A stretch of 64,000 bases of DNA, taken from positions 4,100 through 68,099 of the forward strand of contig JBDKRC010000235.1 in the NCBI GenBank assembly GCA_039683575.1, read 5' to 3'. The notes beneath the pieces were generated by a model. It was not told the origin of the DNA and made no database searches. It worked only from the letters and a program-made list of their open reading frames with translations. Of this stretch, positions 10,120-37,737 are shown in pieces. Source of the DNA: Armatimonadia bacterium (GTDB lineage Bacteria > Armatimonadota > Zipacnadia > Zipacnadales > UBA11051). Each line of letters opens with the position of its first letter. The first letter of the stretch is position 1. Position numbers and translations under genes: made by a program.

Positions 10120-10132
10120 ACCGAATGGCTCC

Positions 10133-17641: not shown

Positions 17642-17677
17642 CCCCCTTGGCCGCCGGCGTCGTGAACCCACCCGTGG
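17642..17677 (+). promoter_or_regulatory. Conserved promoter/operator motif, copy 1 (CCCCTTGGCC-N-CGTGAACCCACCCGTGG).
   Basis: Matches the 8-copy consensus CCCCTTGCCCACG-N6-7-CGTGA(A/G)CCCACCCGTG, immediately upstream of the start at 17680. Confidence 0.6.
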
Positions 17678-17679
17678 AT

Positions 17680-18153
17680 ATGACAACCACGCACCCCCCA
17701 ATCACCAAGACCGGATGCACCGCCTGTGGGCACCGCGAAAAGCCATCGGCCATCTCCGACAATATGGCCAGGTTCACGAACAGGGACGGCCGCACGGACC
17801 GCTGCCTGCGCCGGTGCGGCATCGAGGTGCCCTTGGGCACCAAGGTGCTGCTGTGCCGCCAGCATGCTGTCACGCTGGAGCAGGAGCTGACGACGGAGTA
17901 CGGCTCTGCGTGCCCTTATGTCCGCCCGCTGCCGCACAGCGAGGTTGTGGTCGGGTTGGATACCCGACCCAGCATGGCGGAACTGACCACCTGGACCGGT
18001 GACCCGTTCCTACCGACGGCAACCCTCGGGCCGGAGTACCAGCTCTTCGGCAGACACCGTGCGCGGCGGGTGTCGGTGGAGTTCGAGGGTCGAGAGTTCA
18101 GTGGCGTGTGGCTGCCGGACTGTCAGGACCTCGTCCGGCTCCGGGCGGGGTGA
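17680..18153 (+). CDS. Hypothetical protein (157 aa).
   Basis: ORF begins MTTTHPPITKTGCTACGHREKP, 3 nt downstream of motif copy 1 (leaderless-like). Confidence 0.45.
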   Translation: MTTTHPPITKTGCTACGHREKPSAISDNMARFTNRDGRTDRCLRRCGIEVPLGTKVLLCRQHAVTLEQELTTEYGSACPYVRPLPHSEVVVGLDTRPSMAELTTWTGDPFLPTATLGPEYQLFGRHRARRVSVEFEGREFSGVWLPDCQDLVRLRAG

Positions 18154-18160
18154 CACCGAT

Positions 18161-18197
18161 CCGCCTTGCCCGACGACACCCGTGAACCCACCCACAG
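18161..18197 (+). promoter_or_regulatory. Conserved promoter/operator motif, copy 2.
   Basis: CCGCCTTGCCCGACGACACCCGTGAACCCACCCACAGG, directly before the ATG at 18199. Confidence 0.55.
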
Positions 18198-18198
18198 G

Positions 18199-18525
18199 AT
18201 GGAGGTAACGACCGTGCATGACGATACCCAGACGCCGACCGTCTTCAGGACATACCCGGATGGTGAGGTGGCGGCCCTCTTCCCGACGATCCCGGCAGAC
18301 CCGAATGGCAACTGCTCGTCATACGTCCATGTCGGGCAGCACGGGGCCGCCGACCCGCACCACCTGATCTCCCGCACCCGCCCGGCGACGCCGGACGAGT
18401 ATGCGGAACTCACTGCAGAGTTGGAGGCCATCGGGTACGCCGTCCGGCCCGTCAGGAGGATGACCCACCGAATGGTCGAGGAGCGGCGGGTGACTACCGA
18501 GCCCCCTTGCCCACGCGGGTCGTGA
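18199..18525 (+). CDS. Hypothetical protein (108 aa).
   Basis: MEVTTVHDDTQTPTVFRTYPDGEVAALFPT..., preceded by motif copy 2. Confidence 0.45.
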   Translation: MEVTTVHDDTQTPTVFRTYPDGEVAALFPTIPADPNGNCSSYVHVGQHGAADPHHLISRTRPATPDEYAELTAELEAIGYAVRPVRRMTHRMVEERRVTTEPPCPRGS

Positions 18526-18536
18526 ACCCACCCGTG
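18502..18536 (+). promoter_or_regulatory. Conserved promoter/operator motif, copy 3.
   Basis: CCCCTTGCCCACGCGGGTCGTGAACCCACCCGTG, followed by GGAGGTG and the ATG at 18555. Confidence 0.6.
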
Positions 18537-18554
18537 TTCCGGAGGTGATGACGG

Positions 18555-18950
18555 ATGAGCCGGCCACTGCTGGATGACGAGATGAAGGCCAGGCTGCCCG
18601 AGCTGTACTCGCAGGAGGACTTGACAGACCCGATCGTGCAGGTGCTGCTGCTCGGGGCCACCGGATGGGTGTGGGCCATCACCGAGTACTCCGATGTAGC
18701 ACCTGATGGGTGCGAGCATCTTGCGTTCGGGTGGGTGTGCGGCGACTACCCCGAACTGGGCTACGTCCCGATGGACGAGCTCGACGAGTTGAACGCCGAC
18801 TGCCTGGAGGGGTTTGGGTACGTCTGGGTCGACACGACCTTCACCCCCCGCCCCCTCTCCCAAGTACGGGCCGAGGCAGAGGACATCCGCCGACGCCTGC
18901 GGGAGGAGTTGGAGGCCGGGGAGCATCAGGTCATCAGGGTTCGGGGCTGA
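18555..18950 (+). CDS. Hypothetical protein (131 aa), acidic.
   Basis: MSRPLLDDEMKARLPELYSQEDLTDPIVQVLLLGATGWVWAITEYSD... A GGAGGTG RBS lies upstream. Confidence 0.5.
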   Translation: MSRPLLDDEMKARLPELYSQEDLTDPIVQVLLLGATGWVWAITEYSDVAPDGCEHLAFGWVCGDYPELGYVPMDELDELNADCLEGFGYVWVDTTFTPRPLSQVRAEAEDIRRRLREELEAGEHQVIRVRG

Positions 18951-19003
18951 CGCCGGAGGGTAGGGCCCATCGAGCCGATCAGCCCGAGAACCGAACGGAG
19001 GTG

Positions 19004-19465
19004 ATGAAGATGCTGAGCGCCGCCACTTTCGGGTCGTTGCTGGAGAGGGGCGATGTCCTCGTGAAGGACGGCGATGCCTACCGTCCCCTGGCCGCCAATG
19101 ACGCACATCGCCGGATGTACGTGCGCCTGTCGGATGGCACCCACGTGATGCTGGCGTTCACCGGCGGCGGCACCGACGGGCCCGGCGCCGCCCCGCAGCG
19201 GGTGAGGATCGACATCGGTGGCTCCGTGGCCGACGCCGTCAGGGACGCTAACGTGGCTGCGGCGCCGTACACGAGCGTGGTCGGCTCCTGTCTGAAGGCC
19301 TACGTGCTGTTCCTGGTCGGGGTGGCGGTCGTGGGCATGGCGGCGGTGGCGCTGTTCGGTGACTACGGCCAGCCGGGGCTGCTCGCGAGGTACCCCTTCC
19401 AGTCAGCCGTGATTGCCGCCATCGTGATCTGGATCGTCATCGCCCGGAGGCGGCGACGTCGGTGA
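19004..19465 (+). CDS. Small membrane protein (153 aa).
   Basis: GGAGGTG sits 0-1 nt before ATGAAGATG. The C-terminal half is hydrophobic (VLFLVGVAVVGMAAVALF...VIAAIVIWIVIARRRRRR), consistent with two TM helices. Confidence 0.5.
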   Translation: MKMLSAATFGSLLERGDVLVKDGDAYRPLAANDAHRRMYVRLSDGTHVMLAFTGGGTDGPGAAPQRVRIDIGGSVADAVRDANVAAAPYTSVVGSCLKAYVLFLVGVAVVGMAAVALFGDYGQPGLLARYPFQSAVIAAIVIWIVIARRRRRR

Positions 19466-19480
19466 CGGTCCCCCGCGGTC

Positions 19481-19514
19481 CCACTTTGCCGGACGGGGGA
19501 CGTGAACCCACCGG
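19481..19514 (+). promoter_or_regulatory. Conserved promoter/operator motif, copy 4 (more diverged).
   Basis: CCACTTTGCCGGACGGGGGACGTGAACCCACCGGCTC, upstream of the start at 19544. Confidence 0.45.
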
Positions 19515-19543
19515 CTCAACACCACGCCGGAAGGCGTCGAACG

Positions 19544-19855
19544 ATGACCACCTACTGCGACGCAGAGGGCTGCGAGAACGAGGCCACCGAGGTCGTCCCG
19601 GTCTCCGTCGGCGAGAATGCCGTCGAACATCGCCGCTACTGCTACCCCTGCTCCGCGGCGTGCCACACGGGGGCACAGCACGCGCGCTTCCGGGCGATCC
19701 GGCGACTGACGGCCCATATGGATTCGCTCAAGAAGCAAGGGTTCGTCACCGAGGCGGGCGTCATCTTCATGGCGCTCCAGAAGCTCGATACTGCGACCGA
19801 CCCCGGCGAGGAGGGGGTGGGGCCGCCGCCCCTCGATGGTCCGGGAGATCAGTAG
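19544..19855 (+). CDS. Small Cys-rich (zinc-finger-like) protein (103 aa).
   Basis: MTTYCDAEGCENEATEVVPVSVGENAVEHRRYCYPCSAACH, with two Cys clusters. Confidence 0.45.
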   Translation: MTTYCDAEGCENEATEVVPVSVGENAVEHRRYCYPCSAACHTGAQHARFRAIRRLTAHMDSLKKQGFVTEAGVIFMALQKLDTATDPGEEGVGPPPLDGPGDQ

Positions 19856-19860
19856 CCGAC

Positions 19861-19895
19861 CCCCCTTGCCCACGGGTGGGGTGAGCCCACCCGTG
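19861..19895 (+). promoter_or_regulatory. Conserved promoter/operator motif, copy 5 (perfect 10-bp inverted repeat CACGGGTGGG / CCCACCCGTG).
   Basis: CCCCCTTGCCCACGGGTGGGGTGAGCCCACCCGTG, followed by AGGAGG and the ATG at 19913. Confidence 0.65.
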
Positions 19896-19912
19896 AGCAG
19901 GAGGTGATCAGG

Positions 19913-20872
19913 ATGCACGAGCGTGTGACACTGACGGACCGTGACAGCCGTGCCCGGCTCATGCGGCAACACGTCGAGGCCGTGGCCCGCTCGATCGTCG
20001 AGGACCACGATGGCGACGAGGTGTTCGCCCGCTACCTCAGCCTGACGAAGCACGTCCACCACTACAGCAGCGGCAATCGGATGTTGATTGCCTGGCAGGC
20101 ACCGGACAGCCGCTTGGTCGCATCGAGGTCGGCGTTCGACGCCGTCGCCAAGGGGCAGGGGCACGAGGGCCGTCAGTTCTCGAGTCGCAGGGGCAGACGC
20201 TGGACGCAGCACGTCACCATCGCCGCCGGGTCGAGGGCCATCTGGGTGTGGGGACCGACGAGGCGGAGCCGCTCCGTCGTGACCACCGACACCGAGACGG
20301 GCGAGGAGACACGGGAGGTCATCCCATTCACCGGCTTCATCCCCGTCGATCTTTGGGCCATCGAGGATGTCCGCTATGCCGACGATGGCGAGCCAATGGA
20401 GCCGCCGGACTTCGTACAACCCATAGAGGACGAGGCGCTGTACCACTCGCTGCTCGCGTTTGCCGAGGACAAGGACATCGAAGTGTGCGAACGGGGCCTC
20501 AACGGGGCCCGTGGCGTCTCGATGGTGGGCCGGATCGGCCTGCAGGCGGGCGACCATTGGTCCCTGCGAATCGGGCCGCTGATCCACGAATTGGGCCACG
20601 AGTTGATGCACGACGTCCACGCGCGGCTGACCGAGCCGAACTACCTGCACGAGCACGAGGCGGAGGCGGTGGCGACGGTGGTGCTGGGCTACCTCGGACA
20701 CCCCACGGCGATCTCTGCCAGTTACCTTAGGAACTGGGGTGCGTCCCCCAGGAACGTTGTCGCCTCGATGGATCGGATCGCCTCCTGTGCGGGAGAGATC
20801 GTGGAGTTCATCGAGCGACGGACCGAGGTGTCGGTCGAGGTCGCACGGGCGACCTCACTGGCGGTGGCCTGA
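19913..20872 (+). CDS. ArdC-like antirestriction protein (N-terminal ssDNA-binding-like domain, C-terminal zincin HExxH metalloprotease domain).
   Basis: N-terminal YSSGNRMLIAWQAPD resembles ArdC_N. C-terminal HELGHELMH matches HExxH. An AGGAGG RBS lies 9 nt upstream of the ATG. Confidence 0.55.
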   Translation: MHERVTLTDRDSRARLMRQHVEAVARSIVEDHDGDEVFARYLSLTKHVHHYSSGNRMLIAWQAPDSRLVASRSAFDAVAKGQGHEGRQFSSRRGRRWTQHVTIAAGSRAIWVWGPTRRSRSVVTTDTETGEETREVIPFTGFIPVDLWAIEDVRYADDGEPMEPPDFVQPIEDEALYHSLLAFAEDKDIEVCERGLNGARGVSMVGRIGLQAGDHWSLRIGPLIHELGHELMHDVHARLTEPNYLHEHEAEAVATVVLGYLGHPTAISASYLRNWGASPRNVVASMDRIASCAGEIVEFIERRTEVSVEVARATSLAVA

Positions 20873-20890
20873 GCGGTGGCGAGGTGGGCG

Positions 20891-21238
20891 CTACTCCCTC
20901 CCACCCGCCGCCTGCAGCATCCGCCGCAGTTCGGCTGCGATCGCCTGACGCACGTCATCGTCGGGCAGCAGGCCTCCACTGTACAGTGCCGCCGGCGGCA
21001 GCAATCCGACGGCCACGTACACTGGCAGACCGTGAGCCGTATCCCACAGTGGCCAGATCATCTCGCCCTCGACGAAGCTCGTGACTGGTTGGCCCCACAG
21101 CTTACGTGCCGCCCGTGCTACCAGTCCCTCATCCAGCCCCAGCCGCACCTGTATCCAGTGGTCCGTGGGGTTCGCCCCCCGCTCCGCCCGGACCTCATCG
21201 GGTGTCGCCGGTCTCAGTTCGATACCTCGCTCACTCAT
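20891..21238 (-). CDS. Hypothetical protein (115 aa), convergent with ardC-like.
   Basis: MSERGIELRPATPDEVRAERGANPTDHWIQVRLGLDEGLVARAARKLWGQP..., with ordinary composition. Confidence 0.4.
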   Translation of the reverse strand: MSERGIELRPATPDEVRAERGANPTDHWIQVRLGLDEGLVARAARKLWGQPVTSFVEGEMIWPLWDTAHGLPVYVAVGLLPPAALYSGGLLPDDDVRQAIAAELRRMLQAAGGRE

Positions 21239-21312
21239 GTCATGGCCTCCTCTGGTCAGTCGTATGCACCCTTATACCGATTGCCCCACCCATCGACCTA
21301 CAACCGACCGAG

Positions 21313-21347
21313 TCCCCTTGTCCACGGGCGGCGTGAGCCCACCCCTG
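21313..21347 (+). promoter_or_regulatory. Conserved promoter/operator motif, copy 6.
   Basis: TCCCCTTGTCCACGGGCGGCGTGAGCCCACCCCTG, upstream of the ATG at 21375. Confidence 0.55.
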
Positions 21348-21374
21348 GGCATCACCCTGACGGGGAGGACGGAC

Positions 21375-21635
21375 ATGAGACGCATCCTGATCGTCTGGCA
21401 CGATCTCGACCACAGCCGCACCGCACATGAGTTCGCCACCGCCGAGGAGGCCGAGGCCTGGCTCAGGGACGTGCTGCAGGAGTACTGCCCGCACGAGGAG
21501 CTGGAACGGGGCGGCTACACGCCCGACGGGATCGGTATGTTGGGGCTGTATCAGGGGGAGGGTCTCGACGACGTCGGCTCGCTCGATGTCTACATCGACG
21601 GCATCGGCGTCGGACCGGAGGCCCTCCGTGAGTGA
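21375..21635 (+). CDS. Hypothetical protein (86 aa).
   Basis: MRRILIVWHDLDHSRTAHEFATAEEAEAWLRDVLQEYCPHEE... Confidence 0.45.
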   Translation: MRRILIVWHDLDHSRTAHEFATAEEAEAWLRDVLQEYCPHEELERGGYTPDGIGMLGLYQGEGLDDVGSLDVYIDGIGVGPEALRE

Positions 21636-22089
21636 GCATCGACGGCTCCTGTTGGGCCCTTGGCCGCCCGAGAACTGGCGGCGGGACGATCGCATCCCGC
21701 TCATGTCCCTCCGCAAGGATCTGCTGTACTGCTTGTTGTCGCGGTGTGGCGAGGTCCTGCCTTGGGAACTGCCGGCGATGACGCCGACAGAGGTGCTGTG
21801 CCGGCTGAACGCGGCGGGACCTCCGCTCGACGACCGGGCCATCCCCGTGATCGAGGGGGTCCTCGAGGCAATGTACCGCGACGGGATCGTGGGACGCATC
21901 CCGCCACCAAGGGTCGGCGAGGCCGCATCCTACGTGGCCCGTGACGCCGCTGAGATGGACCTGCCACGGGGCAAACCGGTGATGCTCCTGCACATGAGGG
22001 ATGGCGTGGAGCGGTCACTGGCTCTGGGGGCCGTCGGCGTCGCGGTGGACGAACTGGCCGATGAACCGACGGCACCACACGGAAGGTGA
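21628..22089 (+). CDS. Hypothetical protein (about 153 aa), GTG start overlapping the previous stop.
   Basis: VSEHRRLLLGPWPPENWRRDDRIPLMSLRKDLLYCLLSRCGEVLPWELPAMTPTEV..., with an 8-nt overlap with the upstream gene. Confidence 0.4.
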   Translation: MSEHRRLLLGPWPPENWRRDDRIPLMSLRKDLLYCLLSRCGEVLPWELPAMTPTEVLCRLNAAGPPLDDRAIPVIEGVLEAMYRDGIVGRIPPPRVGEAASYVARDAAEMDLPRGKPVMLLHMRDGVERSLALGAVGVAVDELADEPTAPHGR

Positions 22090-22382
22090 GCGGGATGCCC
22101 ACGGTCATAGGGCACACGCCGGACGGACGGGAGATCATCCGCCACGACCCCTCTGAGGGCTGCCGCTACCGCTGCCTGACCTGCGGCAACTGGCTGGCGC
22201 GGCGCCGCGAGGTCAGGGGGCACTGGGCCCTGTACTCGGACGGGCACAGCGTGTACGCGGACCGCGCGGGACGGACGTACCATCAGACGGTGGAGGGGCT
22301 GCATCGGAGGGACTGGCCGACTGGCAGTGCCGACCAGGCCGACGGGACGGAGGCCGATGCTCCCGGTGCCACCGGCGGATAG
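22086..22382 (+). CDS. Small CxxC protein (about 95 aa).
   Basis: MPTVIGHTPDGREIIRHDPSEGCRYRCLTCGNWLARRRE... (zinc-ribbon-like). A GGAAGGTG RBS lies upstream. Confidence 0.4.
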   Translation: MSGMPTVIGHTPDGREIIRHDPSEGCRYRCLTCGNWLARRREVRGHWALYSDGHSVYADRAGRTYHQTVEGLHRRDWPTGSADQADGTEADAPGATGG

Positions 22383-22403
22383 GGGTGGGCTGGTAAGGAC
22401 CGG

Positions 22404-22440
22404 CCCCCCTTGCCCACGAACGGCGTGAGCCCACCCGTGG
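22404..22440 (+). promoter_or_regulatory. Conserved promoter/operator motif, copy 7.
   Basis: CCCCCCTTGCCCACGAACGGCGTGAGCCCACCCGTGG, then GAGGAGG and the ATG at 22465. Confidence 0.6.
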
Positions 22441-22464
22441 TCATCACACCCGAGGAGGCGGGGC

Positions 22465-22947
22465 ATGTCCAGATCGTTCAAGCAGAGGTTCCGTAGGGAC
22501 GTATCCGACCTGCTGGCGTCCATCTCGGTGGACCCGGAGCCGCGCCGCACCCTCGTCAGCTGGCCGCTGTTCGACGCCCTCGTCGAGATCGAGGCGGAGG
22601 TCAACAGCCCCCGCACGAACTGGCACCTGGTGGCGGCCCTGACTGGGGCGAAGAGCTACATCGTGACCGTCCCGTATGGCCGCTCCTGCGATGACCCCTT
22701 CTGGGCGGAGGAGCGGGCGGACGATGAACCCTCCATCTACGGGATTCTCGATGGCCTGCACTTCCGTGCGGCTATGCGGGTGGGCGTTCTGGCCTCCGGC
22801 CTCTCGGTGTTCGGCGGCACCGCCGACGGCGTGGAGATCCGGCACGGGGAGGTCGACACGCAGGCGTCACCCGGCAGCCCGACCCTGCGGCTGATCGCGG
22901 CGGAGCGTGCCCGGATCGAGGCGGACCCCGCGGACGACGGGGGATGA
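22465..22947 (+). CDS. Hypothetical protein (160 aa).
   Basis: MSRSFKQRFRRDVSDLLASISVDPEPRRTLVSWPLFDALVEIEAEVNSP... Confidence 0.45.
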   Translation: MSRSFKQRFRRDVSDLLASISVDPEPRRTLVSWPLFDALVEIEAEVNSPRTNWHLVAALTGAKSYIVTVPYGRSCDDPFWAEERADDEPSIYGILDGLHFRAAMRVGVLASGLSVFGGTADGVEIRHGEVDTQASPGSPTLRLIAAERARIEADPADDGG

Positions 22948-22995
22948 ACCGGACCAGATGGACGGTGGGCGTAGCACGAACGACAGGAGACATCT

Positions 22996-23613
22996 ATGAG
23001 CGACCACGATGATGTGTATGAACCCGACGCCGACCCGAAGAACCTGTTCGAACGCCACAGGGCCTCCGGCGAACCGCTGAGCCAGGCCGATGTTGCCGCG
23101 ATCATTGCGGCGGGTCTCGCCGGGAAAGACGAGTTCGACATGACGGGCGGTGGATGCTACCTACACGCCCCGACGTTCCCGGACCCCGACGCCGACACCG
23201 GATCACGGGACCTGCCCCGGCCGCGGGATATGGCCACGGCCGCGGCGTTCCGCGACTGGCTGAGCGGCGAGGTGGACTGGTGGTGCGGGGAAAACGGCCT
23301 CGCCCCCCACGGCGGGGGGGAGAACCTCGGCGACCTGTACCGCGAGTTCGACGTGGCGGATGTGTTCTCAAGGATCGGCGTGACGGCGATTCCCGCCTAC
23401 GACGAGCAGACGCTCTACCTCGTGGGACCGGACGCGGCCTGGATCGCCGCCACGGGGATCGAACTCGGGGGCGAATCGGAGACGCTGTGGCAGGACCCGC
23501 TGGGCAGCCTGCGACTGGACGTACCCGTGAACGAACTCCACACCTACCGCGACCGCCTGCTGCGGCTCGCCGGCGAGATCACCGCCGTCCTGGATCGGGG
23601 GGAGGGACTATGA
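22996..23613 (+). CDS. Hypothetical protein (205 aa).
   Basis: MSDHDDVYEPDADPKNLFERHRASGEPLSQADVAAIIAAGLAGKDEFDMTGGGCYLHAPTFPD... Confidence 0.45.
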   Translation: MSDHDDVYEPDADPKNLFERHRASGEPLSQADVAAIIAAGLAGKDEFDMTGGGCYLHAPTFPDPDADTGSRDLPRPRDMATAAAFRDWLSGEVDWWCGENGLAPHGGGENLGDLYREFDVADVFSRIGVTAIPAYDEQTLYLVGPDAAWIAATGIELGGESETLWQDPLGSLRLDVPVNELHTYRDRLLRLAGEITAVLDRGEGL

Positions 23614-23813
23614 CCGGTACCGTCCTCGACCTGAACGACTTCGGGTCATTCTGGCTGCTGACAATCGCTGCCGAGCGTCGGATCGTGGAGCAGCCCATCG
23701 AGCCCCGTCATATGCGGCACCTGGTCGAGGGGGAGGGGCTGGAATCACCGTACGACCTTGAGGGACGGGAGGTCCAGGTGAGCGACGACGGCATGGCGAT
23801 CCGGCTGATGTGA
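23610..23813 (+). CDS. Small hypothetical protein (67 aa).
   Basis: MTGTVLDLNDFGSFWLLTIAAERRIVEQPIEPRHMRHLVEGEGLESPYDLEGREVQVSDDGMAIRLM. Its ATG overlaps the upstream stop. Confidence 0.35.
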   Translation: MTGTVLDLNDFGSFWLLTIAAERRIVEQPIEPRHMRHLVEGEGLESPYDLEGREVQVSDDGMAIRLM

Positions 23814-23854
23814 GATGGGAGGCACAGGTGACCACACAGATTACCCAGGAGGAA

Positions 23855-28068: not shown

Positions 28069-28130
28069 GTCATTCACTCTCCCTCGCAGGTATGTGCACA
28101 GGCGGGATGACCGGTCGGCTCCCTTGAGAT

Positions 28131-30677: not shown

Positions 30678-30747
30678 CCGCTCAGCCTCCTTCGCCGCCC
30701 ACCCGTGCGGCACGCCGCCGCACCTCGTATTGCCCCCACACCGAGTC

Positions 30748-32025: not shown

Positions 32026-32039
32026 CGGTCTTCACACTC

Positions 32040-33260
32040 CTACAGCCGATTCGCCAGTTCCCCCAGCAACTGGCGTCTCCGTCGGTTATCTTCCCTCACC
32101 TGCCGCAGGTCCTCGGCGGTCTCAGACCGCCTCGGCTCCCCGGAGGTGGTGCCGGTTCCCGGTTCGATCCGGCGATGGCCGAATCGCGTCCGGGAGTTGC
32201 GAATCACGTCCAGCACGTGTTCCCGCCCCTCGCGGAGGGCCGCGACCAGGCACGGGACGATCTTCTCCCGTAGCCCCTTATCCGTGTAATAGTCAGTGAA
32301 GATGGTGATCATGTCCGAGGCCTCGCGGGGGGTAACGACGGAGCGGTACTTCCGGGCCAGGGAGGCGGTGAGCCCGGCCCGACGCAGCAGGTCCTCGACC
32401 TGCTGCTCATCAGCCGGGGCATCGGTGGGGGCGGGAGACGCGGAGTGGTCCCCCCGCCTGGGACCCTCGCTGCGCTCGGGCCCGCTCACGACGGCAGACG
32501 GGGATGAGGTCCTGAGGTCGTTGCTCTCAGACTCGCCGTTGTCGTTGTCGTTTCCGTCGTAGTTCGAGTCCGAACGACAGGTCAGGTCGTCATCACCGGC
32601 CGTGGACGTGACGGGGGCGGCGAAGGCCGCCGCCGGAACGTCTGATGATGATTCCTCTGATAGATTCTCTGACCTAACGTCTGAACAACGTCTGACGGAG
32701 GGCACGAAGCCCTGAGCCTGTTGGGCTGAGGGCACTTCCGTCACCCCGTTTTGGGAATCTTCCACCCCATTTCGGGAATCCGTCGCCCCGTTTTGGGAAT
32801 CGATCACCCCATTTTGGGGAGCGGGATTCCCATTTTGGGAACCGAATTCCCCGTTTTGGGAAACCGGATCTCGTTGTCGGGAACCGACGGTCCGCTCGGC
32901 CGACGCCGCTGATTGGCCGTGCCAACCCTCGAAGTCGGCCACCAGCACCGACCCTCCATCGAGGGTGACCAGCCCACGGGCGGTCAGCCTGGTGAGGTCT
33001 GCGCGGACGTGATCGACGCGGATGCCGAGGTCCGCGGCGAGATCGGGCAGCGGCCGGATCACCTGCCCTGGCACCAGCCGACCGTTGCGGTCCGCCCCTC
33101 GCCAGGCATTGGCCAGCAGCGTGATGAACAGGTACCGCTGACGCCAGGTCAGCCCCGACATGCGGGCGTCATGTAGCAGGCCGGGGGTCAGCGGAAAGAA
33201 GCCGCCCCTCCTGGCGGTCTTGCGGTCATCACCGTGACTGGGGGAATCGTACGTGGGCAT
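32040..33260 (-). CDS. Replication-initiator-like protein: winged-helix N-domain, internal low-complexity SQNG repeats, conserved C-terminal domain (about 406 aa).
   Basis: N-terminal ...LTWRQRYLFITLLANAWRGADRNGRLVPGQ...RADLTRLTARGLVTLDGGSV. A GAGAGGAG RBS lies 7 nt before the ATG at 33260 (MPTYDSP). It sits directly upstream of the DnaC-like gene. Confidence 0.5.
   Translation of the reverse strand: MPTYDSPSHGDDRKTARRGGFFPLTPGLLHDARMSGLTWRQRYLFITLLANAWRGADRNGRLVPGQVIRPLPDLAADLGIRVDHVRADLTRLTARGLVTLDGGSVLVADFEGWHGQSAASAERTVGSRQRDPVSQNGEFGSQNGNPAPQNGVIDSQNGATDSRNGVEDSQNGVTEVPSAQQAQGFVPSVRRCSDVRSENLSEESSSDVPAAAFAAPVTSTAGDDDLTCRSDSNYDGNDNDNGESESNDLRTSSPSAVVSGPERSEGPRRGDHSASPAPTDAPADEQQVEDLLRRAGLTASLARKYRSVVTPREASDMITIFTDYYTDKGLREKIVPCLVAALREGREHVLDVIRNSRTRFGHRRIEPGTGTTSGEPRRSETAEDLRQVREDNRRRRQLLGELANRL
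32740..32890. repeat. Coding tandem repeat, about 7 units of 21 bp (CCCCGTTTTGGGAATC-like), encoding [S/E]QNG[x]3 repeats.
   Basis: Visible as cgttttgggaatc / catttcgggaatc / cattttggggagc / cattttgggaacc / cgttttgggaaacc periodic units. Confidence 0.7.
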
Positions 33261-33311
33261 CTGGGTCTCCTCTCGTCCCCGGGGTGGCATCGCTCCTCTG
33301 GCTGTGCGGCT

Positions 33312-33354
33312 GGGAGAGGGGTGGAGGAGACCCGGGGGGTCGACACCCCTCTCC
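33312..33354. promoter_or_regulatory. Perfect 12-bp inverted repeat (GGGAGAGGGGTG-N19-CACCCCTCTCCC) about 50 bp upstream of the replication-initiator start. Operator, origin element or terminator.
   Basis: Read directly from the sequence. Confidence 0.45.
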
Positions 33355-33577
33355 CGGCTGTCGCCCGCCCCCGGGGGCCTATTCCCGAGGCGTGGTGGCG
33401 ACATCCAACCATCAGTAATGGGGATCTGACCCTTCGACCTGCATCCGGCGGTCGACCAGGACGGAATCGGTCAGCTTAGCATTGGATCCGGGCACGGGAA
33501 TGGTTGCAGAAAGGTCAGTGTTGGGATGCGCTGCGTTGGAGATCGGGGGGATGGAGGGCGACTCGGAGGCGGAAGGC

Positions 33578-34594
33578 TCAGGCCCGATGCTCTCGCTTGC
33601 GGCGATTGGCCTGGAGCAGTTGGACCTGCCGCTCCAACGGCAGAGCGAAGAAGAGGTGGATGGCCAGGTCCACGACGTCCGAGAGCCGGATGTGTCGACC
33701 GAGGGCGCGGGAGCCCAGCAAGGAGAGCTGGGTGATGTGGGTGATGCTCGATCTGCGGAGGGCGAAGGTTCGGGCCTGGGACGCGCCGCGGCGGCCCAGC
33801 AGTTCGGCGTGGTCGAGGACTGGGCTGGTCCGTATGGCGACCGCGACGATCTCCGACAACCTGATGTGACGGCCGGTGCGCTCCGACAGCGTCCTGGAGA
33901 ACACCCGCAGCGATCCGATCGCCTCGGAGGACAGGTAGTACAGTCGGGGTACGACATCCTGAGGGTCTTGGATGGCCGAGGCGCGACCGACCTCATCGCC
34001 AGGCCCCGCCGACTGCGGCGTCACCTCTTCGGGCATGTGCCGACGGACGAGGTCCGGCACTAGCGTCACCACGAGCAGGTCCGGGGCACCGGCAACACCG
34101 CGGTCGGGCGGGAGGCCGACGGCCTTCAGCGGCTTGATGATGTCACCGATGACGTCACAACGTCCTGCCCTCGAAGGCACGACGAGGATTCTCGTTGCCT
34201 GGAGACCAGCAAGTCGTGGGGGGCTGGCCACCACGACACGATCATGATCTGCCAGAAGCCGCTCGATCAGTCGTGTGAGAAGTTCCGCGACCACATCGGT
34301 GCCATCGGCATCATCTGTCGGGCTCGGTCTCACGGTCAGCGCGCTGAGCCCCGGCACGGCGGAGGACGCCGTCATCTGACTCACATCAGCAACTCCATCG
34401 GCCAAGGCCGTCAGCAGTGATGGCAGGTCGCACGTCCCCGCACGGCCCCGCTGCCGGGACCGCGGCGGTCGTGGAGTCAGGTCGAGCAGGATGGTCCTGA
34501 GGCCGGCCCACGCGCAGGCCTCGGCGAGGTCGTGCGCCGTCGCACACTGGCCCTTCCGCGAGCGGCAGGAGGTGAGGATGAGGAGTTGGCCCAT
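33578..34594 (-). CDS. ParA/MinD-like partition ATPase homolog with a degenerate Walker A (338 aa).
   Basis: N-terminal QLLILTSCRSRKGQCATAHDLAEACAWAGLRTILLDLTP aligns with ParA [22 protein letters not shown]...RVLLIDLDPQ but lacks GKT. Possibly a pseudo-ATPase. Confidence 0.4.
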   Translation of the reverse strand: MGQLLILTSCRSRKGQCATAHDLAEACAWAGLRTILLDLTPRPPRSRQRGRAGTCDLPSLLTALADGVADVSQMTASSAVPGLSALTVRPSPTDDADGTDVVAELLTRLIERLLADHDRVVVASPPRLAGLQATRILVVPSRAGRCDVIGDIIKPLKAVGLPPDRGVAGAPDLLVVTLVPDLVRRHMPEEVTPQSAGPGDEVGRASAIQDPQDVVPRLYYLSSEAIGSLRVFSRTLSERTGRHIRLSEIVAVAIRTSPVLDHAELLGRRGASQARTFALRRSSITHITQLSLLGSRALGRHIRLSDVVDLAIHLFFALPLERQVQLLQANRRKREHRA

Positions 34595-34657
34595 GGGGTG
34601 GTTACAGGTGCCCGCAATGATATGATGATATGGTTACGACGTCGCCCTTTTCGCCGC

Positions 34658-35764
34658 CTACGAGCCCCGCTCCTCCCGCCTCGAGGCGGCGATCGGGGGC
34701 GGTCCCGGTTGCCCCGGGCTGACACCAGAGATCGCCTCCAACGAGGGGCGCAGGGCGAGCCCGATCGCCTTCGCCAACAACGGTGGGACGGCGTTCCCGA
34801 CCTGAACCATGGCCGAGGCCATCTCACCGGAGAAGCGGAAGCTGTCGGGAAAGGACTGCAGCCTGGCCATCTCCCGTGCCGAGATCGTCCGCGGCAGTTC
34901 ATAATGGATGTGCGGCGCGCCGTTGTTGTGCTTGATCGTCGGGGACGGCAGGCCGATGCGGAGCCGGCGCCAACTGCCGGAGTAGCCATCGTACAGCGTC
35001 TCCCCGGGGGCGACCCGCGCCAGACGCATCTCCATCTCGGATGTGTGGCGGGTCCATTCGTGGTTGGTGGCGGGATCCCTGGGGCGGCCCTTGAGATCGT
35101 TGATGGCGCACTCCACGGGAATGAAACGGCGGCGGGACAGCAGCGGCAGTGGCCGGGGGTTGGGCCGGCCATATCGATTGGCAACGATGAACAGCCTTCT
35201 TCTCATCTGGGGGACGCCGAACTCGGCGGATTCGAGCATCATCACGGATCCATCCGGGTAGCCGATGCCAGCTAGGCCGTCGAGGATCCGCTGGATGCGC
35301 CCCCCCTGCTCGATGCTCAGTAGTCCTGGAACGTTCTCCATCACCAGGAAGTGCGGGCGCAGGATGCCCGCGACGCGGAGGAACTCCTGGTACAGGTGCC
35401 CGCGGGGGTCGGCCGGGTCACGTTTCCCCGCCGTCGAGTGGCTCTGGCACGGCGGCCCGCCGCAGATGACGTCAGGCGGGGCACCTGGGAAAAGCGCCAG
35501 AAGGTCATACTCGCTCAGATCCTCGATGAGCCCGGTGTGCAGCCGGGTGCCGGGAAAGTTGTTGGCGTAGGTGGCGTAGGCATCGGCGTCGGCCTCGACC
35601 GCCAGCACGGGTTCGTAACCCGCCATACCGAACCCCAGGCTCAGCCCACCGGCGCCGGCGAACAGGTCGACGACGCGGTAGGTCGAGCCCGTGTCCACCT
35701 GAGAGGTGTCCACCCACTCGATGTCGCTGCCCTCATAGCTCCTAAACTTTGGCGTTTTCTGCAT
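34658..35764 (-). CDS. dcm: DNA cytosine-5 methyltransferase.
   Basis: Motif I VVDLFAGAGGLSLGF, motif IV GGPPCQSHS, motif VI ENVPGL. Confidence 0.9.
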   Translation of the reverse strand: MQKTPKFRSYEGSDIEWVDTSQVDTGSTYRVVDLFAGAGGLSLGFGMAGYEPVLAVEADADAYATYANNFPGTRLHTGLIEDLSEYDLLALFPGAPPDVICGGPPCQSHSTAGKRDPADPRGHLYQEFLRVAGILRPHFLVMENVPGLLSIEQGGRIQRILDGLAGIGYPDGSVMMLESAEFGVPQMRRRLFIVANRYGRPNPRPLPLLSRRRFIPVECAINDLKGRPRDPATNHEWTRHTSEMEMRLARVAPGETLYDGYSGSWRRLRIGLPSPTIKHNNGAPHIHYELPRTISAREMARLQSFPDSFRFSGEMASAMVQVGNAVPPLLAKAIGLALRPSLEAISGVSPGQPGPPPIAASRREERGS

Positions 35765-35822
35765 CGGCCTCGTGGCGCATATATGTAAGGTAGAGGTGGA
35801 ACCTCGGCTGACTCTTGCTGCC

Positions 35823-36242
35823 TCACGGTGAGGCGTCCTCGGGGAAGAGCCGCCGCAACCGCCGCCCCAGCTTCACGGAGTTCCTCGTCTCGCACTCCCA
35901 CACTATCACCACACGCCAGCCCAGCCGCCGTAGTTCGCGCTGGTTCTCACGATCAAGCTCGATGTTCCGCTCGAACTTCGCCAACCAGAACTCGCTGTTC
36001 CGCATCGGTCGTTGGGTATGGCAGCAACCGCCGTGACGGTGCCAGTAACAGCCGTGCACAACGACCACCGTCCCCCATCTCGGCAGGACGATGTCCGGAC
36101 GGCCGGGCAGGTCCCGCCGATGGAGCCGGAACCGCAGGCCCATCTCGTGGAGCATCCGCCGAACGATCAGCTCCGGCCTCGTGTTCCTGGAGCCGACGGC
36201 GGCGAGTCTCCTGCTGGATATCTCTGGCGACTCGTGACGCAT
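35823..36242 (-). CDS. vsr: Very-short-patch-repair endonuclease.
   Basis: TRPELIVRRMLHEMGLRF...DIVLPRWGTVVVVHGCYWHRH...EFWLAKFERN matches Vsr. Adjacent to dcm. Confidence 0.85.
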   Translation of the reverse strand: MRHESPEISSRRLAAVGSRNTRPELIVRRMLHEMGLRFRLHRRDLPGRPDIVLPRWGTVVVVHGCYWHRHGGCCHTQRPMRNSEFWLAKFERNIELDRENQRELRRLGWRVVIVWECETRNSVKLGRRLRRLFPEDASP

Positions 36243-36443
36243 GGTGGAGTGGATACCTTGCCTTGGGCAGCCTCCCCCGTGTCATCTTAGCCGTGGTGCC
36301 GCCGACCCGCAAGTGCATCGGTGTCCGTGCGGAGGCACATCAGTCTCCACAAGGGGCAAGTTGGCGAGCCTGGTGCTATTGCTTTCGCCCGGTGAAGCCT
36401 CTACAATCGCTTATGTCCGAAGTACAGGGAGGATTCGCCTGCT

Positions 36444-36641
36444 ATGAGCGATCACAAGGACGAGAGGGTCGAGGCCGAGAGATTGTGGCGCACCCATATC
36501 GAGACGGCCGAGCCGCTCGATCAGGACGAGGTGCGTTTGGTCGTGTTTCACGGCTTTGCCAAGGAGGAGGACTGGGATGATCGCGGCGGAAACCTCTTCT
36601 GGCACACTGCCACCTGGCCTGATCCCGACGCCATCGAATGA
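36444..36641 (+). CDS. Small hypothetical protein (65 aa).
   Basis: MSDHKDERVEAERLWRTHIETAEPLDQDEVRLVVFHGFAKEEDWDDRGGNLFWHTATWPDPDAIE. GGGAGGA lies upstream. Confidence 0.35.
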   Translation: MSDHKDERVEAERLWRTHIETAEPLDQDEVRLVVFHGFAKEEDWDDRGGNLFWHTATWPDPDAIE

Positions 36642-36663
36642 GATCGCATCCCCGTCGTCCTCC

Positions 36664-37633
36664 TCAGTCATCACGGTGCCGCACCGACCTGTACGGCAGG
36701 TGCAACATCGCCGCGGCCGCCTTCTTCGTCTCCTCGCCCCGCCGGTCATAGCGCACCGTGGAAGTGATCTGCCGGTGGCCGGCGTGATTCATACAGGTAG
36801 ACATATCCGTCAAAGACAACAAAGTTGACAAACATGTGCGGCGCAGATCGTGAGGGGTCAGGTCACGCACTCCAGCCTGGCGGACCCTCCGCTTGAGCAT
36901 CCGGTAGATGGCCCGGTCCGACAATCGCACCCCCACCTGCATCCTGCCAGCCTTGTCGACTGGGCAGAAGAGCCGGCCCGGCTCATCCCCGCGGACCGCG
37001 ATGTAGTCTTCGATGGCGTCCCGAGCCCCATTGTCGAGGTAAATCGCGCGCTCAGCAAAACCCTTCCCAGTAACCACGAGTTCAGAAGTCTCCGGCCGGT
37101 AGCTATCCAGTTTCAGTGACGAAACCTCGGCCCGCCTCAAGGCCCCGGCGAACATGAGACCGATCAGGGCCACGTCCCTGATGCCGGCGGGGCCCTCGTC
37201 CCTCAGGCAGGCTTCCACCAGTGCGCCGATCTCCCCTGACGTGACAGCCCGCCCCGCCAGCAGTCGTGATCCCCGCACCGGTCGTACGTCACGGATTCGC
37301 TGGTAGTCATCGCTGGAGATGAGCTCCAGCCCCCACGCCGCCCTTGCCACGCCACGGATCGCATGAAGTGTGGCGTTGATGGTCGCAGGCGCGTAGCCCA
37401 GCTCCACGAGCTTCGTCCGCACGGCCGCCACGTGTTGGTAACGAAGTCGTGCCCAGTCCAGCCCCAGGAAGTCCCGGGTCCCCGCCGTCAGTTCCGCCAC
37501 CTTACTCAGTTTGCCCGCCATTGCCCGTCTCCCCGTCGGCGCCAACGACGCCAAGTACACCAGCGCGGGATGCTGATCCGGCGGCAGTTCCCCCCTCTGC
37601 ATCTCCCCACGAACGCTAATGATTTCGTTCATC
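36664..37633 (-). CDS. int: Tyrosine site-specific recombinase (phage-integrase family).
   Basis: C-terminal catalytic region ...LTPHDLRRTCLSTLL...HRQITSTVRYDRRGEE (R-H-R-Y). A GAGGAGG RBS lies 10 nt upstream of the ATG at 37633 (MNEIISVRG). Confidence 0.85.
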
Positions 37634-37703
37634 GGTCCGATTCGCCTCCTCAAAGCCGCTGAAGATTGGGGGCTGAGAATGGTGATTCTCGACCCCAATG
37701 ACT

Positions 37704-37737
37704 GGGTGGGTTCGCAGACCCTGCGGGCAAGGGGGGT
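37704..37737 (-). promoter_or_regulatory. Conserved promoter/operator motif, copy 8 (minus strand), upstream of int.
   Basis: The reverse complement reads CCCCCCTTGCCCGCAGGGTCTGCGAACCCACCC. Confidence 0.55.

What the first reader, a model, noticed from the sequence alone, without database searches (positions are those of the whole stretch)
17642..37737. Eight copies of a roughly 35-bp conserved promoter/operator motif with an embedded inverted repeat, preceding genes of the mobile element including its integrase
The consensus is CCCCTTGCCCACG-N6-7-CGTGA(A/G)CCCACCCGTG. In copy 5 the halves form a perfect 10-bp palindrome, CACGGGTGGG/CCCACCCGTG.

Each copy ends 3-30 bp before a start codon. 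Several of those are leaderless-like; others have a GGAGG RBS.

Seven copies are at 17.6-22.4 kb on the plus strand, and one is on the minus strand upstream of int at 37.7 kb.

This looks like a regulon controlled by one element-encoded DNA-binding protein or sigma factor, i.e. one regulatory protein controlling maintenance and excision genes together. The TTGCCC part may serve as a -35 element.
Basis: seen in the sequence. Interest (0 to 1): 0.65.

Follow-up and report, generated by a model that had tools for sequence, protein, structure and literature searches.

The report
Repeated promoter cassettes in mobile element
The eight repeats are real and are most likely copies of one unusual promoter, sometimes built as a hairpin-forming palindrome, that sits in front of each small gene and the integrase of an uncharacterised integrated element; this resembles promoter/stem-loop cassettes known from some phages.

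Summary
All eight copies exist at the stated places. A two-box pattern hits 7 times against 0 in shuffles, and a model built from the copies finds nothing in the other 44 kb of the window or in 1.9 Mb of unrelated DNA.

Related metagenomic elements carry the same unit before almost every small gene. One has 46 copies in 19.7 kb.

The conserved core is CCG-A-n-CCCCTTG(CCC), a 17-19 nt spacer, CCCA(C/T)C, about 6 nt, then C-A-TCAC. Most copies are followed by GGAGG and a start codon 21-24 nt after that A.

In five related elements read directly, and six further gene calls in the protein alignment, the first array gene has no ribosome-binding site, and its ATG sits exactly on that A. I therefore infer that transcription starts there. 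This puts TTG at -33/-34 and CCCACC at -13 to -8. It is a promoter with a -35-like box and no TATAAT-like -10.

The inverted repeat is an optional add-on. Only copy 5 in the window folds significantly. In relatives the arms covary.

No sigma factor or repressor gene was found in the window.

Closest analogues are the ESAS promoter/inverted-repeat motifs of cluster K mycobacteriophages and the PeSL cassettes of T4-type phages. I class this as a new variant of a known kind.

The parts
17635..17686 (+). Copy 1. No hairpin. Inferred +1 = 17680, which is the A of the ATG of the first array gene (leaderless).
   Evidence: 52.6 bits. The position of the ATG relative to the motif is conserved in 5 elements and in further homologues.
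18154..18206 (+). Copy 2, with a spacer 1 nt longer. Inferred +1 about 18200. GGAGG, then GTG start at 18214.
   Evidence: (32 bits).
18495..18546 (+). Copy 3. Inferred +1 about 18540. The ribosome-binding site starts right at +1. ATG at 18555.
   Evidence: (46.6 bits).
19474..19527 (+). Copy 4, degenerate (CTTTGCC). Inferred +1 about 19521. ATG at 19544. It lies at the breakpoint where L001 carries two extra motif+ORF cassettes.
   Evidence: (31.2 bits).
19854..19905 (+). Copy 5, before the ArdC-like gene. It is the only window copy with a significant palindrome: arms 19866-19880 / 19886-19900, loop 19881-19885. Inferred +1 = 19899. ATG at 19913.
   Evidence: z = -4.4; 61.6 bits. ArdC fold match.
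21306..21357 (+). Copy 6, in the divergent intergenic region after the minus-strand gene 20891-21238. Has GGGCATCAC. Inferred +1 = 21351. ATG at 21375.
   Evidence: (58.8 bits).
22398..22449 (+). Copy 7. Has GTCATCAC. Inferred +1 = 22443. ATG at 22465.
   Evidence: (62.9 bits).
37691..37742 (-). Copy 8, on the minus strand in the divergent region between int and a + strand methyltransferase gene. No hairpin. Inferred +1 about 37697-37699. int ATG at 37632.
   Evidence: (30.1 bits).
17680..27251 (+). Rightward array of about 16 mostly small genes with no family assignment. It includes a Cys-rich first gene (17680-18153), an ArdC-like protein (19913-20872), a ClpX-like AAA+ protein (24321-25568) and an FtsH/M41-like protein (25824-26618). 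Copies 1-7 lie in its first 5 kb.
27802..37632 (-). Leftward gene block with only copy 8 upstream, so possibly one operon. Order: XerC/D-like integrase, Vsr, Dcm, a 338-aa protein, a 454-aa protein with a weak winged-helix signal, a DnaC/IstB-like ATPase, a 925-aa repeat protein, a 135-aa protein.
   Evidence: The operon status is inferred.

Best explanation
The repeats are copies of one promoter cassette of about 50 bp that belongs to the element.

Anatomy, numbered from the inferred start site:
- A C-rich box ending in an invariant CCCTTG, with TTG at -34/-33, usually followed by CCC.
- A spacer of 17-19 bp whose sequence is free.
- A second near-invariant box, CCCA(C/T)C, at -13 to -8.
- G-rich bases, then C(-1) A(+1) TCAC.

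RNA polymerase starts at that A. The transcript has one of three leaders: 21-24 nt with a GGAGG ribosome-binding site, 8-15 nt beginning at the ribosome-binding site, or none (first gene of the array).

Copies 1-7 give the genes at the head of the rightward array their own promoters. That array includes an ArdC-like antirestriction-type protein. Copy 8 drives int and probably the whole leftward block of integrase, Vsr, Dcm and replication genes.

The -10 position is GC-rich and unlike TATAAT. Recognition therefore probably needs something other than the plain housekeeping holoenzyme: an alternative sigma factor or an activator, from the host or the element. That factor is not identified.

The inverted repeat is an add-on, in which the spacer has become the reverse complement of -13..+1. 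The whole promoter is then a palindrome with a 12-15 bp stem. It lies entirely upstream of +1, so it is transcribed only by polymerases arriving from the upstream cassette. Its most likely role is to insulate cassettes, as a terminator, attenuator or 3'-end-stabilising hairpin like those of T4 PeSLs. Second most likely, it is an operator for a dimeric repressor.

The near-identical cassettes also supply homology for gain and loss of gene+promoter units.

Shown: the anatomy, conservation, position and covariation. Inferred: the start site, the promoter function and the hairpin's role.
For: 1. Two conserved boxes at a fixed distance, with a free spacer, across 86 copies in 6 elements. Element-weighted frequencies: C, T, T 1.00 and G 0.98 in CTTG; A(-10) 0.96; C(-8) 0.98; C(-1) 0.88; A(+1) 0.88; A(+4) 0.95. 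The distance from TTG to +1 is 33-34 nt in 74 of 82 copies measured.

2. Every copy points at the next gene. This includes copies in divergent intergenic regions: window copies 6 and 8, and L004 7611-7664 on the minus strand.

3. The first array gene is a homologous Cys-rich protein of 157-160 aa. It has no ribosome-binding site, and its ATG lies exactly on the A of C-A-TCAC in the window, L001, L168, L004 and L003. In L004 an in-frame stop 33 nt upstream leaves no other possible start. NCBI's own annotation uses the same start. Over-extended gene calls in six further homologues translate the motif and show the same TTG-to-ATG distance.

4. The distance from +1 to the start codon is 21-24 nt in 55 of 76 copies. 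The ribosome-binding site never begins upstream of +1.

5. The motif is specific to the element.

6. No sigma-70-consensus promoter and no intrinsic terminator is found in 16.7-23 kb, so nothing else there looks like a promoter.

7. Hairpin as an add-on. Only 1 of 8 window copies folds significantly. Where the hairpin is present, the arms covary: 39 cells changed on both sides against 18.2 +/- 3.1 in shuffles, and 77.7% of cells paired against 36-47% for slid registers. The ArdC-like gene's promoter keeps a strong hairpin in five of six elements even though the arm sequences differ. Copies that head a transcription unit fold poorly (median -9.1 kcal/mol, n = 9) compared with copies behind a co-directional gene (median -25.8, n = 78, p = 0.003; without L169, p = 0.048).

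8. Cassette turnover. The backbone gene order is conserved with units gained and lost. The window/L001 homology breaks inside copy 4, where L001 has two extra motif+ORF units.

9. Published analogues. ESAS are 46-47-bp repeated motifs holding a putative promoter plus a 15-bp inverted repeat (PMC11373665). PeSLs are a promoter plus a stem-loop that can overlap the -35 or -10 box and that terminates transcription (PMC2839356).
Against: - There are no transcript data. The start site rests on the leaderless inference.
- The -10 position has no TANNNT, and no factor that could read CCCACC was found in the element.
- The hairpin has no U-tract, so it is not a classical terminator.
- G-U wobbles are not enriched on the sense strand (GT/TG 22 against AC/CA 54 overall; 3-7 against 7-8 in near-perfect copies). 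This gives no positive support for folding at the RNA level.
- The head-of-unit copies form only 3-4 orthologous groups, so the p-values overstate independence.
- Several mid-array copies in L169 also lack the hairpin.
Confidence: 0.6

Rival explanations
1. Operator regulon. The conserved sequence is chiefly the binding site of one element-encoded dimeric repressor or activator. The real promoters are separate or only overlap it. The palindrome is the functional part.
For: The palindrome spans -33 to +1, the classic place for a repressor to block polymerase. Its outer bases, TGCCC/GGGCA, are conserved across elements. An Xre-type HTH gene lies 0.7-1.4 kb upstream of the array in L003/L171, L168, L172 and L167. 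Repressor binding has been proposed for the ESAS inverted repeat (PMC11373665). CUP repeats of IncN plasmids are ArdK binding sites at leading-region promoters (PMC6289460).
Against: - Seven of eight window copies have no significant palindrome.
- The 5' arm is unrelated sequence in many copies that keep both boxes.
- Within one element the arms differ by compensatory changes. A single protein reading bases would not require that.
- The window has no Xre homologue and no other HTH or sigma hit.
- L167 has an Xre gene but a hairpin-less motif.
Confidence: 0.12
2. RNA-level element. The array is one long transcript, and the motif is an intercistronic RNA signal, either a processing site cut at GGGC^A or a translational operator. 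This would produce the 5' ends seen, including the leaderless first gene.
For: The hairpin ends exactly at -1/+1. Spacing to the ribosome-binding site is regular. A leaderless AUG could be produced by cleavage. A conserved region of about 900 nt without convincing ORFs upstream of copy 1 could hold the real promoter.
Against: - The leaderless copies have no hairpin in any of the five elements, so a hairpin-guided nuclease is excluded there.
- Two boxes at a fixed distance with a free spacer is how duplex DNA is read by a polymerase holoenzyme. It is not typical of RNA recognition.
- Copies occur on the opposite strand in divergent regions.
- There is no sense-strand G-U enrichment.
- There is no Rfam match.
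Confidence: 0.1
3. Recombination sites. The hairpin units act like integron attC sites, or like targets of the element's tyrosine recombinase, and mobilise gene cassettes.
For: Arrays of up to 46 near-identical units flank small, mostly unique ORFs in one orientation. Structure is conserved while sequence varies. Cassette-sized indels are bounded by the units. A tyrosine recombinase gene carries a copy of the motif.
Against: - The integrase is XerC/D-like. Its scores are far below every family cut-off, there is no integron-integrase hit, and it lies 15 kb from the array.
- There are no R''/R' GTTRRRY core sites in the consensus.
- The unit runs through the ribosome-binding site up to the ATG and is kept even where no hairpin exists.
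- Ordinary homologous recombination between repeats of about 68 nt explains the indels, as was argued for PeSLs (PMC2839356).
Confidence: 0.07
4. Plain transcription terminators or genome-wide selfish palindromes (REP/MITE-like) that happen to lie between genes.
For: GC-rich hairpins lie 5-25 nt after the stop codons of upstream genes.
Against: - There is no U-tract, and the scan finds no terminator-like sites.
- Copies sit at the head of transcription units and in divergent regions.
- The flanking boxes are conserved and oriented.
- The motif is absent from the 44 kb of flanks and from 1.9 Mb of control DNA.
Confidence: 0.03

Closest known systems
Extended start-associated sequences (ESAS) of cluster K mycobacteriophages (Pope 2011, PMC3203893; Adephagia 2024, PMC11373665; K4 phages 2025, PMC12699233)
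   Same: - A repeated motif of about 46-50 bp in one orientation, in intergenic regions before non-structural genes of a temperate element.
- It contains a putative promoter plus an imperfect 15-17-bp inverted repeat with a short variable spacer.
- One arm is better conserved than the other.
- The repeat consensus differs between sub-lineages.
- In some copies the last base of the right arm is the first base of the start codon.
- The function has not been proven experimentally.
   Different: - There is no sequence similarity.
- ESAS have SigA-like -35 and -10 hexamers, whereas here the -10 position is CCCA(C/T)C.
- ESAS go with a 13-bp SAS (GGGATAGGAGCCC) at the ribosome-binding site; here there is only a generic GGAGG.
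- The host is an Armatimonadia MAG and the element has no recognisable virion genes.
- Copy number reaches 46 in one relative, against 7-10.
PeSL (promoter-early stem-loop) cassettes of T4-type phages (PMC2839356, PMC4122927)
   Same: - A composite promoter + GC-rich stem-loop unit between small ORFan genes in hyperplastic regions.
- The stem-loop may lie between, or overlap, the -35 and -10 boxes.
- Indels between relatives are bounded by the units.
- Each cassette brings its own expression signals.
   Different: - PeSL promoters are strong sigma-70 consensus promoters with AT-rich upstream regions.
- Terminator activity and mini-circles were shown experimentally there and are untested here.
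- Those are lytic phages; this is an integrated element.
CUP (conserved upstream) repeats of the IncN plasmid pKM101/R46 leading region (Delver and Belogurov 1997, as cited in PMC6289460)
   Same: Repeated conserved upstream sequences at the promoters of several establishment or antirestriction genes and of a replication gene in one mobile element, forming one regulon. The array here contains an ArdC-like protein.
   Different: CUPs are bound by the plasmid repressor ArdK, and no counterpart was found here. There is no sequence similarity. No conjugation genes or oriT were seen in the window.
Integron attC sites and cassette arrays
   Same: Long one-directional arrays of small, mostly unique ORFs separated by homogeneous palindromic units whose structure is better conserved than their sequence.
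   Different: - There is no IntI-type integrase and no attI/Pc arrangement.
- There are no GTTRRRY core sites.
- The units are about 50 nt and include a promoter-like core and the ribosome-binding site.
- Many units have no hairpin.
Hairpin-form promoters: phage N4 virion RNA polymerase promoters and Frpo-type single-strand promoters of plasmid leading regions (N4 from my own knowledge; Frpo in PMC11541004)
   Same: A hairpin superimposed on a transcription start region before early or establishment genes.
   Different: - N4 hairpins have 5-7 bp stems and 3-nt loops and need a phage polymerase. No such gene is present here.
- Frpo hairpins are about 300 nt and rebuild the -35 and -10 boxes in the stem.
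- Here the core motif works, by inference, without any hairpin.

Membership tests
Canonical sigma-70/SigA promoter | TTGnnn -35 box about 35 nt upstream of the start site | tested here: met
   TTG is invariant and lies 33-34 nt before the inferred +1 in 74 of 82 copies measured. The +1 itself is inferred.
Canonical sigma-70/SigA promoter | TANNNT -10 hexamer 16-18 bp after the -35 box | tested here: not met
   Positions -13..-8 read CCCA(C/T)C. The consensus scan finds 0 sites in 16.7-23 kb.
ESAS of cluster K mycobacteriophages | Repeated oriented intergenic motif of about 46-50 bp before non-structural genes | tested here: met
   Eight copies in the window, and 86 full-length copies aligned across six elements. 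All are oriented toward the next gene.
ESAS of cluster K mycobacteriophages | Imperfect 15-17-bp inverted repeat with a short spacer inside the motif | tested here: inconclusive
   Present in most copies of the relatives (52 of 87 copies fold at -20 kcal/mol or better) but in only 1 of 8 window copies.
ESAS of cluster K mycobacteriophages | Association with the 13-bp SAS GGGATAGGAGCCC and sequence relatedness to ESAS consensus | tested here: not met
   Only a generic GGAGG follows the motif. The consensus differs. There is no megablast match of the element to phage records.
T4 PeSL cassettes | Promoter and stem-loop combined in one unit that flanks small ORFans in a plastic region | tested here: met
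   The promoter function is inferred, not measured.
T4 PeSL cassettes | Indels between close relatives bounded by the units | tested here: met
   The window/L001 homology breaks at copy 4. L001 has two extra motif+ORF units there.
T4 PeSL cassettes | Stem-loop terminates transcription; mini-circles form | not testable with these tools
   This needs reporter assays and inverse PCR. There is no U-tract after the stem.
Integron (attC / IntI) | IntI-type tyrosine recombinase next to attI and Pc at the head of the array | tested here: not met
   The integrase is XerC/D-like: 88.7 bits against a cut-off of 335. The only integron-labelled model it touches is the archaeal XerA 'tyrosine recombinase/integron integrase' model, at 66.7 bits against a cut-off of 220. 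The gene lies 15 kb from the array, at the other end of the element.
Integron (attC / IntI) | R''/R' core sites (RYYYAAC / GTTRRRY) at the base of the hairpin | tested here: not met
   The stem base is TGCCC/GGGCA and the consensus has no GTT core.
Intrinsic terminator | GC-rich hairpin followed by a U-tract | tested here: not met
   The hairpin is followed by ATCACAC. There are 0 terminator-like sites in 16.7-23 kb.
REP/MITE-type dispersed palindromes | Many copies spread over the genome without relation to gene starts | tested here: not met
   There are no copies in the 44 kb of flanks and 0 hits in 1.9 Mb of other DNA. Only 64 kb of the host genome was available.
CUP/ArdK regulon of IncN plasmids | ArdK-type repressor and conjugative leading-region context | tested here: inconclusive
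   An ArdC-like protein is present (fold match to 6i89, E = 3.9e-07). No repressor, relaxase or type IV secretion gene was recognised. ArdK homology was not searched for specifically.

The most novel reading that the evidence does not exclude
The hairpin-bearing units are more than promoters. They may be the recombination or assembly sites of an integron-like platform that builds long arrays of self-expressing cassettes (46 units in L169). The hairpin would fold in single-stranded DNA and be used by the element's tyrosine recombinase, or during single-strand entry of the element. The odd CCCACC '-10' would be read by a transcription specificity factor that has not yet been described.
Probability: 0.1. 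Interest if true: 0.85.

Novelty: new variant of a known kind. Interest (0 to 1): 0.55.

Why it matters
**An uncharacterised family of mobile elements.** So far it is seen only in an Armatimonadia MAG and in metagenomes. Nearly all its genes appear to be expressed from one stereotyped, non-canonical promoter.

**Why the cassettes are useful.** They mark dozens of small unknown genes as one co-regulated set, which contains an ArdC-like antirestriction-type protein. That set is a natural place to look for anti-defence or establishment functions.

**A testable promoter.** The cassettes give a clean promoter model for a phylum whose transcription signals are unknown: a precise predicted start site, two boxes and an optional hairpin.

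**A recurring design.** The case adds an independent example to the ESAS and PeSL cases. This suggests that promoter+palindrome cassettes are a recurrent way in which mobile elements both express and shuffle accessory genes.

Tried and rejected
**Searches for the element or motif in annotated collections**
- Megablast of the 20.6-kb element against phage and plasmid collections gave no match.
- Three exact motif variants were absent from IMG/VR.
- A looser gapped pattern gave only single chance hits, none confirmed by the model.
- Scans of GTDB genomes and JGI metagenomes with the ArdC-like protein returned almost only distant relatives at 25-30% identity, without the motif. Three closer loci (L087-L089, 41-66% identity) also came back, and the model found no copy in them.

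**Searches for what reads the motif**
- A sigma factor, RNA polymerase or HTH protein in the element: none found.
- The 925-aa protein is a beta-propeller-type repeat protein, not a polymerase, and it is not conserved among the relatives.
- The first-gene protein gave a poor model (pLDDT 65) with no meaningful fold match.

**Other tests of the motif's nature**
- Strand asymmetry of G-T against A-C mismatches, as a test for RNA folding: no sense-strand enrichment, and too few informative mismatches.
- Rfam: no family.
- Attachment-site repeats at the element's ends: none found, so the boundaries remain unresolved.
- CATCAC as the -10 hexamer: rejected. In the hairpin-type elements nothing conserved lies 16-18 bp upstream of it, and in the first gene the ATG replaces it.
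- A sigma-54 or ECF-type reading of the boxes, checked by eye: the spacing does not fit.
- A consensus promoter scan of host DNA gave nothing above chance, so the host's own promoter type stays unknown.
- Literature searches on phiC31 early promoters and on Armatimonadetes mobile elements gave nothing usable.

Full report

Yes. The window is about 64% G+C. The stretch from 17 to 38 kb is slightly richer.

The combined pattern CCTTG-N13-16-GARCCCACC, however, occurs 7 times against 0 in 100 shuffles. A looser scan adds the degenerate eighth copy at 19484.

A covariance model (R1) built from 51 copies finds exactly these eight full-length copies in the 64 kb. It finds none in 1.18 Mb of unrelated genomic loci and none in 0.69 Mb of viral loci.

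Three details need correction:
- Only copy 5 folds better than shuffled sequence. The other seven do not.
- Copy 8 lies about 65-70 nt before the int ATG.
- Only copy 1 is truly leaderless-like.

**2. Where the window comes from, and what surrounds the motif**

The 319-aa protein behind copy 5 is identical to a protein of an NCBI MAG named 'Armatimonadia bacterium'. Its relatives occur only in metagenomes.

*Rightward genes (17.7-27.3 kb).* About 16 mostly small genes have no Pfam, PHROGs or NCBIfam family. The exceptions are:
- a ClpX-like AAA+ protein followed by an FtsH/M41-like protein;
- the 319-aa HExxH protein, whose predicted structure matches the antirestriction protein ArdC of plasmid R388 over both domains (6i89, E = 3.9e-07, probability 1.0).

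*Leftward genes (37.6 down to 27.8 kb).* In order: a XerC/D-like tyrosine recombinase, Vsr, a C5 cytosine methyltransferase, a 338-aa protein, a 454-aa protein with a weak winged-helix signal, a DnaC/IstB-like ATPase, a 925-aa repeat protein and a 135-aa protein. Only copy 8 lies upstream of this block.

There is no tRNA, no attachment-site repeat and no match to known phages or plasmids. The element's type and exact ends remain open.

**3. Related elements show what the motif really is**

I fetched the contigs that carry homologues of the ArdC-like protein and of the first-gene protein: L001-L006, L167-L172. All show the same layout. One-directional arrays of small genes are separated by 55-90 nt, and nearly every gap holds the motif. 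L169 has 46 copies in 19.7 kb before 41 or more ORFs, most of them unique.

The full form of the unit is:

CCCCG-A-C-A-CCCCTTG CCCAC-TG-GTGGG (loop of 4-6) CCCAC-CA-GTGGGC ATCACAC N GGAGG N ATG

TTGCCC and GGGCA form the base of a stem of 12-15 bp.

Across 86 copies, weighted by element, two blocks are near-invariant:
- CCG-A-n-CCCCTTG-n-CC;
- A-n-CCCA(C/T)C-n-G-n-G-n-n-C-A-T-C-A.

The segment between them has a fixed length (17-19 nt) but free sequence.

**4. Where transcription probably starts**

The first gene of the array encodes a conserved Cys-rich protein of 157-160 aa. In the window, L001, L168, L004 and L003 its ATG has no ribosome-binding site. It lies exactly at the position occupied by the A of C-A-TCAC in the other copies.
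- In L004 an in-frame stop 33 nt upstream leaves no alternative start.
- NCBI's annotation uses the same start.
- In six further homologues, over-extended gene calls translate the motif (…SPL…NPPVG-M). They show the same distance of 33 nt, or 34 in one, between TTG and ATG.

A conserved ATG without a ribosome-binding site, at a fixed place in a conserved upstream motif, is most simply explained as a leaderless mRNA. That puts +1 on that A.

All other copies fit this. The start codon follows the A by 21-24 nt in 55 of 76 cases, by 8-15 nt in nine, and the ribosome-binding site never starts upstream of it.

With this +1, TTG lies at -33/-34 and CCCA(C/T)C at -13 to -8.

The -10 position has no TANNNT, and the consensus scan finds no sigma-70-type promoter in the array. 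The start site and the promoter function are inferences from comparative anatomy. No transcript data were available.

**5. The inverted repeat**

On the alignment of 51 copies, the 14-pair stem is formed in 77.7% of cells, against 36-47% for shifted registers. Thirty-nine cells are changed on both sides, against 18.2 +/- 3.1 in shuffles. Two pairs switch between A-T, G-C and C-G inside single elements.

The promoter of the ArdC-like gene keeps a strong hairpin in the window, L001, L168, L004 and L169, although the arm sequences differ.

Even so, the hairpin is not part of the core:
- The first-gene copies lack it in all five elements.
- Copy 8 lacks it.
- Many copies keep both boxes with an unrelated 5' arm.

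The 3' arm coincides with the -13..+1 segment, so the 5' arm is the part that adapts. The hairpin lies wholly upstream of +1, so only polymerases coming from upstream would transcribe it.

Copies at the head of a transcription unit fold poorly (median -9.1 kcal/mol, n = 9). Copies behind a co-directional gene fold well (median -25.8, n = 78; p = 0.003; p = 0.048 without L169). The nine head-of-unit copies form only three or four orthologous groups.

This favours an insulating role: terminator, attenuator or 3'-end stabiliser. That role was shown experimentally for the stem-loops of T4 PeSLs, which can also overlap the -35 or -10 boxes (PMC2839356).

Two points count against it. There is no U-tract, and G-U wobbles are not enriched on the sense strand.

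An operator for a dimeric repressor is the main alternative. An Xre gene precedes the array in four relatives, but the window has no homologue. The within-element compensatory changes also argue for structure rather than base readout.

**6. Cassette behaviour**

The arrays share a backbone order: first gene … ArdC-like … AAA+. Units are gained, lost and occasionally moved between these anchors.

Between the window and its closest relative L001 (84-90% identical), homology breaks exactly at copy 4. There L001 has two additional motif+ORF units. The flanks follow L001's left and right neighbours up to the stop codon and from the ATG onward.

Recombination between the repeated units explains this without a dedicated recombinase. 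An attC-like mechanism fails the defining tests: there is no IntI-type integrase and there are no GTTRRRY core sites.

**7. Comparison with what is known**

The closest described things are:
- **ESAS motifs of cluster K mycobacteriophages.** These are repeated 46-47-bp motifs with a putative promoter and a 15-17-bp imperfect inverted repeat. The consensus differs between subclusters. In some copies the right arm ends on the start codon. The function is still unproven (PMC3203893, PMC11373665, PMC12699233).
- **PeSL cassettes of T4-type phages** (PMC2839356, PMC4122927).
- **CUP repeats of IncN plasmids.** These are a looser parallel: a repeated upstream sequence tying antirestriction and replication genes into one regulon (PMC6289460).

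This case differs in several ways. It has no sequence similarity to any of them. The -10 region is GC-rich. The density is extreme in some relatives. The host phylum is different. The carrier is an integrated element without recognisable virion or conjugation genes.

**8. Verdict**

It is unproven on the single regulator, and wrong in treating the inverted repeat as a general feature of the window's copies.

- Best explanation: an element-specific promoter cassette with an optional palindrome (confidence 0.6).
- Novelty: a new variant of a known kind.
- Interest: 0.55.

Noticed in passing
window 5458-16734 (- strand): The element lies next to what looks like a DNA phosphorothioation (SspABCD-like) module. 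It comprises a cysteine desulfurase (10133-11302), a PAPS-reductase-like protein (11359-12222), a 1142-aa BrxC/D-like ATPase (12182-15610) and a DUF4007 protein (15610-16734). Beside it is a 1553-aa protein with NERD and Ser/Thr kinase domains (5458-10119). The naming is my reading of Pfam hits.
   Followed up: partly
window 16735-17640: This is a stretch of about 900 nt without a convincing ORF, just upstream of copy 1. It is conserved in L001 (4278-4891) and L168. The ORFs called there translate to P/R/S-rich junk. It holds direct repeats of 32-42 nt (17098/17140, spaced 42 nt; 17229/17361). It may be an origin, an attachment region or the site of an upstream promoter.
   Followed up: partly
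window 24321-26618 (+): A ClpX-like AAA+ protein (NCBIfam E = 8e-48, below the family cut-off) is followed by a protein with an FtsH/M41-type peptidase domain. The AAA+ gene is conserved at the end of the array in all related elements. This may be a split AAA+ protease carried by the element.
   Followed up: no
L169 1-19700 (ENA ERZ27247798 k141_400020, 75.6-kb contig): There are 46 near-identical promoter/hairpin units in 19.7 kb, before 41 or more small ORFs. Most ORFs are unique and a few are local duplicates. Some units are followed by no ORF (12902) or by a very short one (8295).
   Followed up: partly
L167 10000-16500 and L170 11000-11100: Two relatives use a different repeated unit with the same architecture and no hairpin: ACGACCTCCCTTCGG, exactly 18 free nt, CATC(A/C)C, then GGAGGTGA and the ATG. 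The upstream box sits about 10 nt (one helical turn) closer to CATCAC than in the main type.
   Followed up: partly
L003 5830-6156, L167 8730-9035, L168 5665-5982, L172 5097-5426: An Xre-type HTH gene lies 0.7-1.4 kb upstream of the array, in the same orientation, in four related elements. It is a candidate regulator. The window has no homologue.
   Followed up: partly
window 19866-19913: At the ArdC-like gene the 3' arm of the hairpin runs straight into the ribosome-binding site (GGGCAGGAGGTG). A read-through transcript would fold part of that site into the stem, while a transcript started at the predicted +1 (19899) would leave it free. The same arrangement is found in L001 and L168.
   Followed up: no
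window array ORFs 17680-28209: Among the small array proteins there are weak, sub-threshold Pfam hints to a Lar restriction-alleviation protein (E = 0.025), DUF2958 (E = 0.11) and several zinc-ribbon families. DUF6876 occurs in the arrays of L003 and L169. Together with the ArdC-like fold, this hints at an anti-defence or establishment gene set.
   Followed up: no
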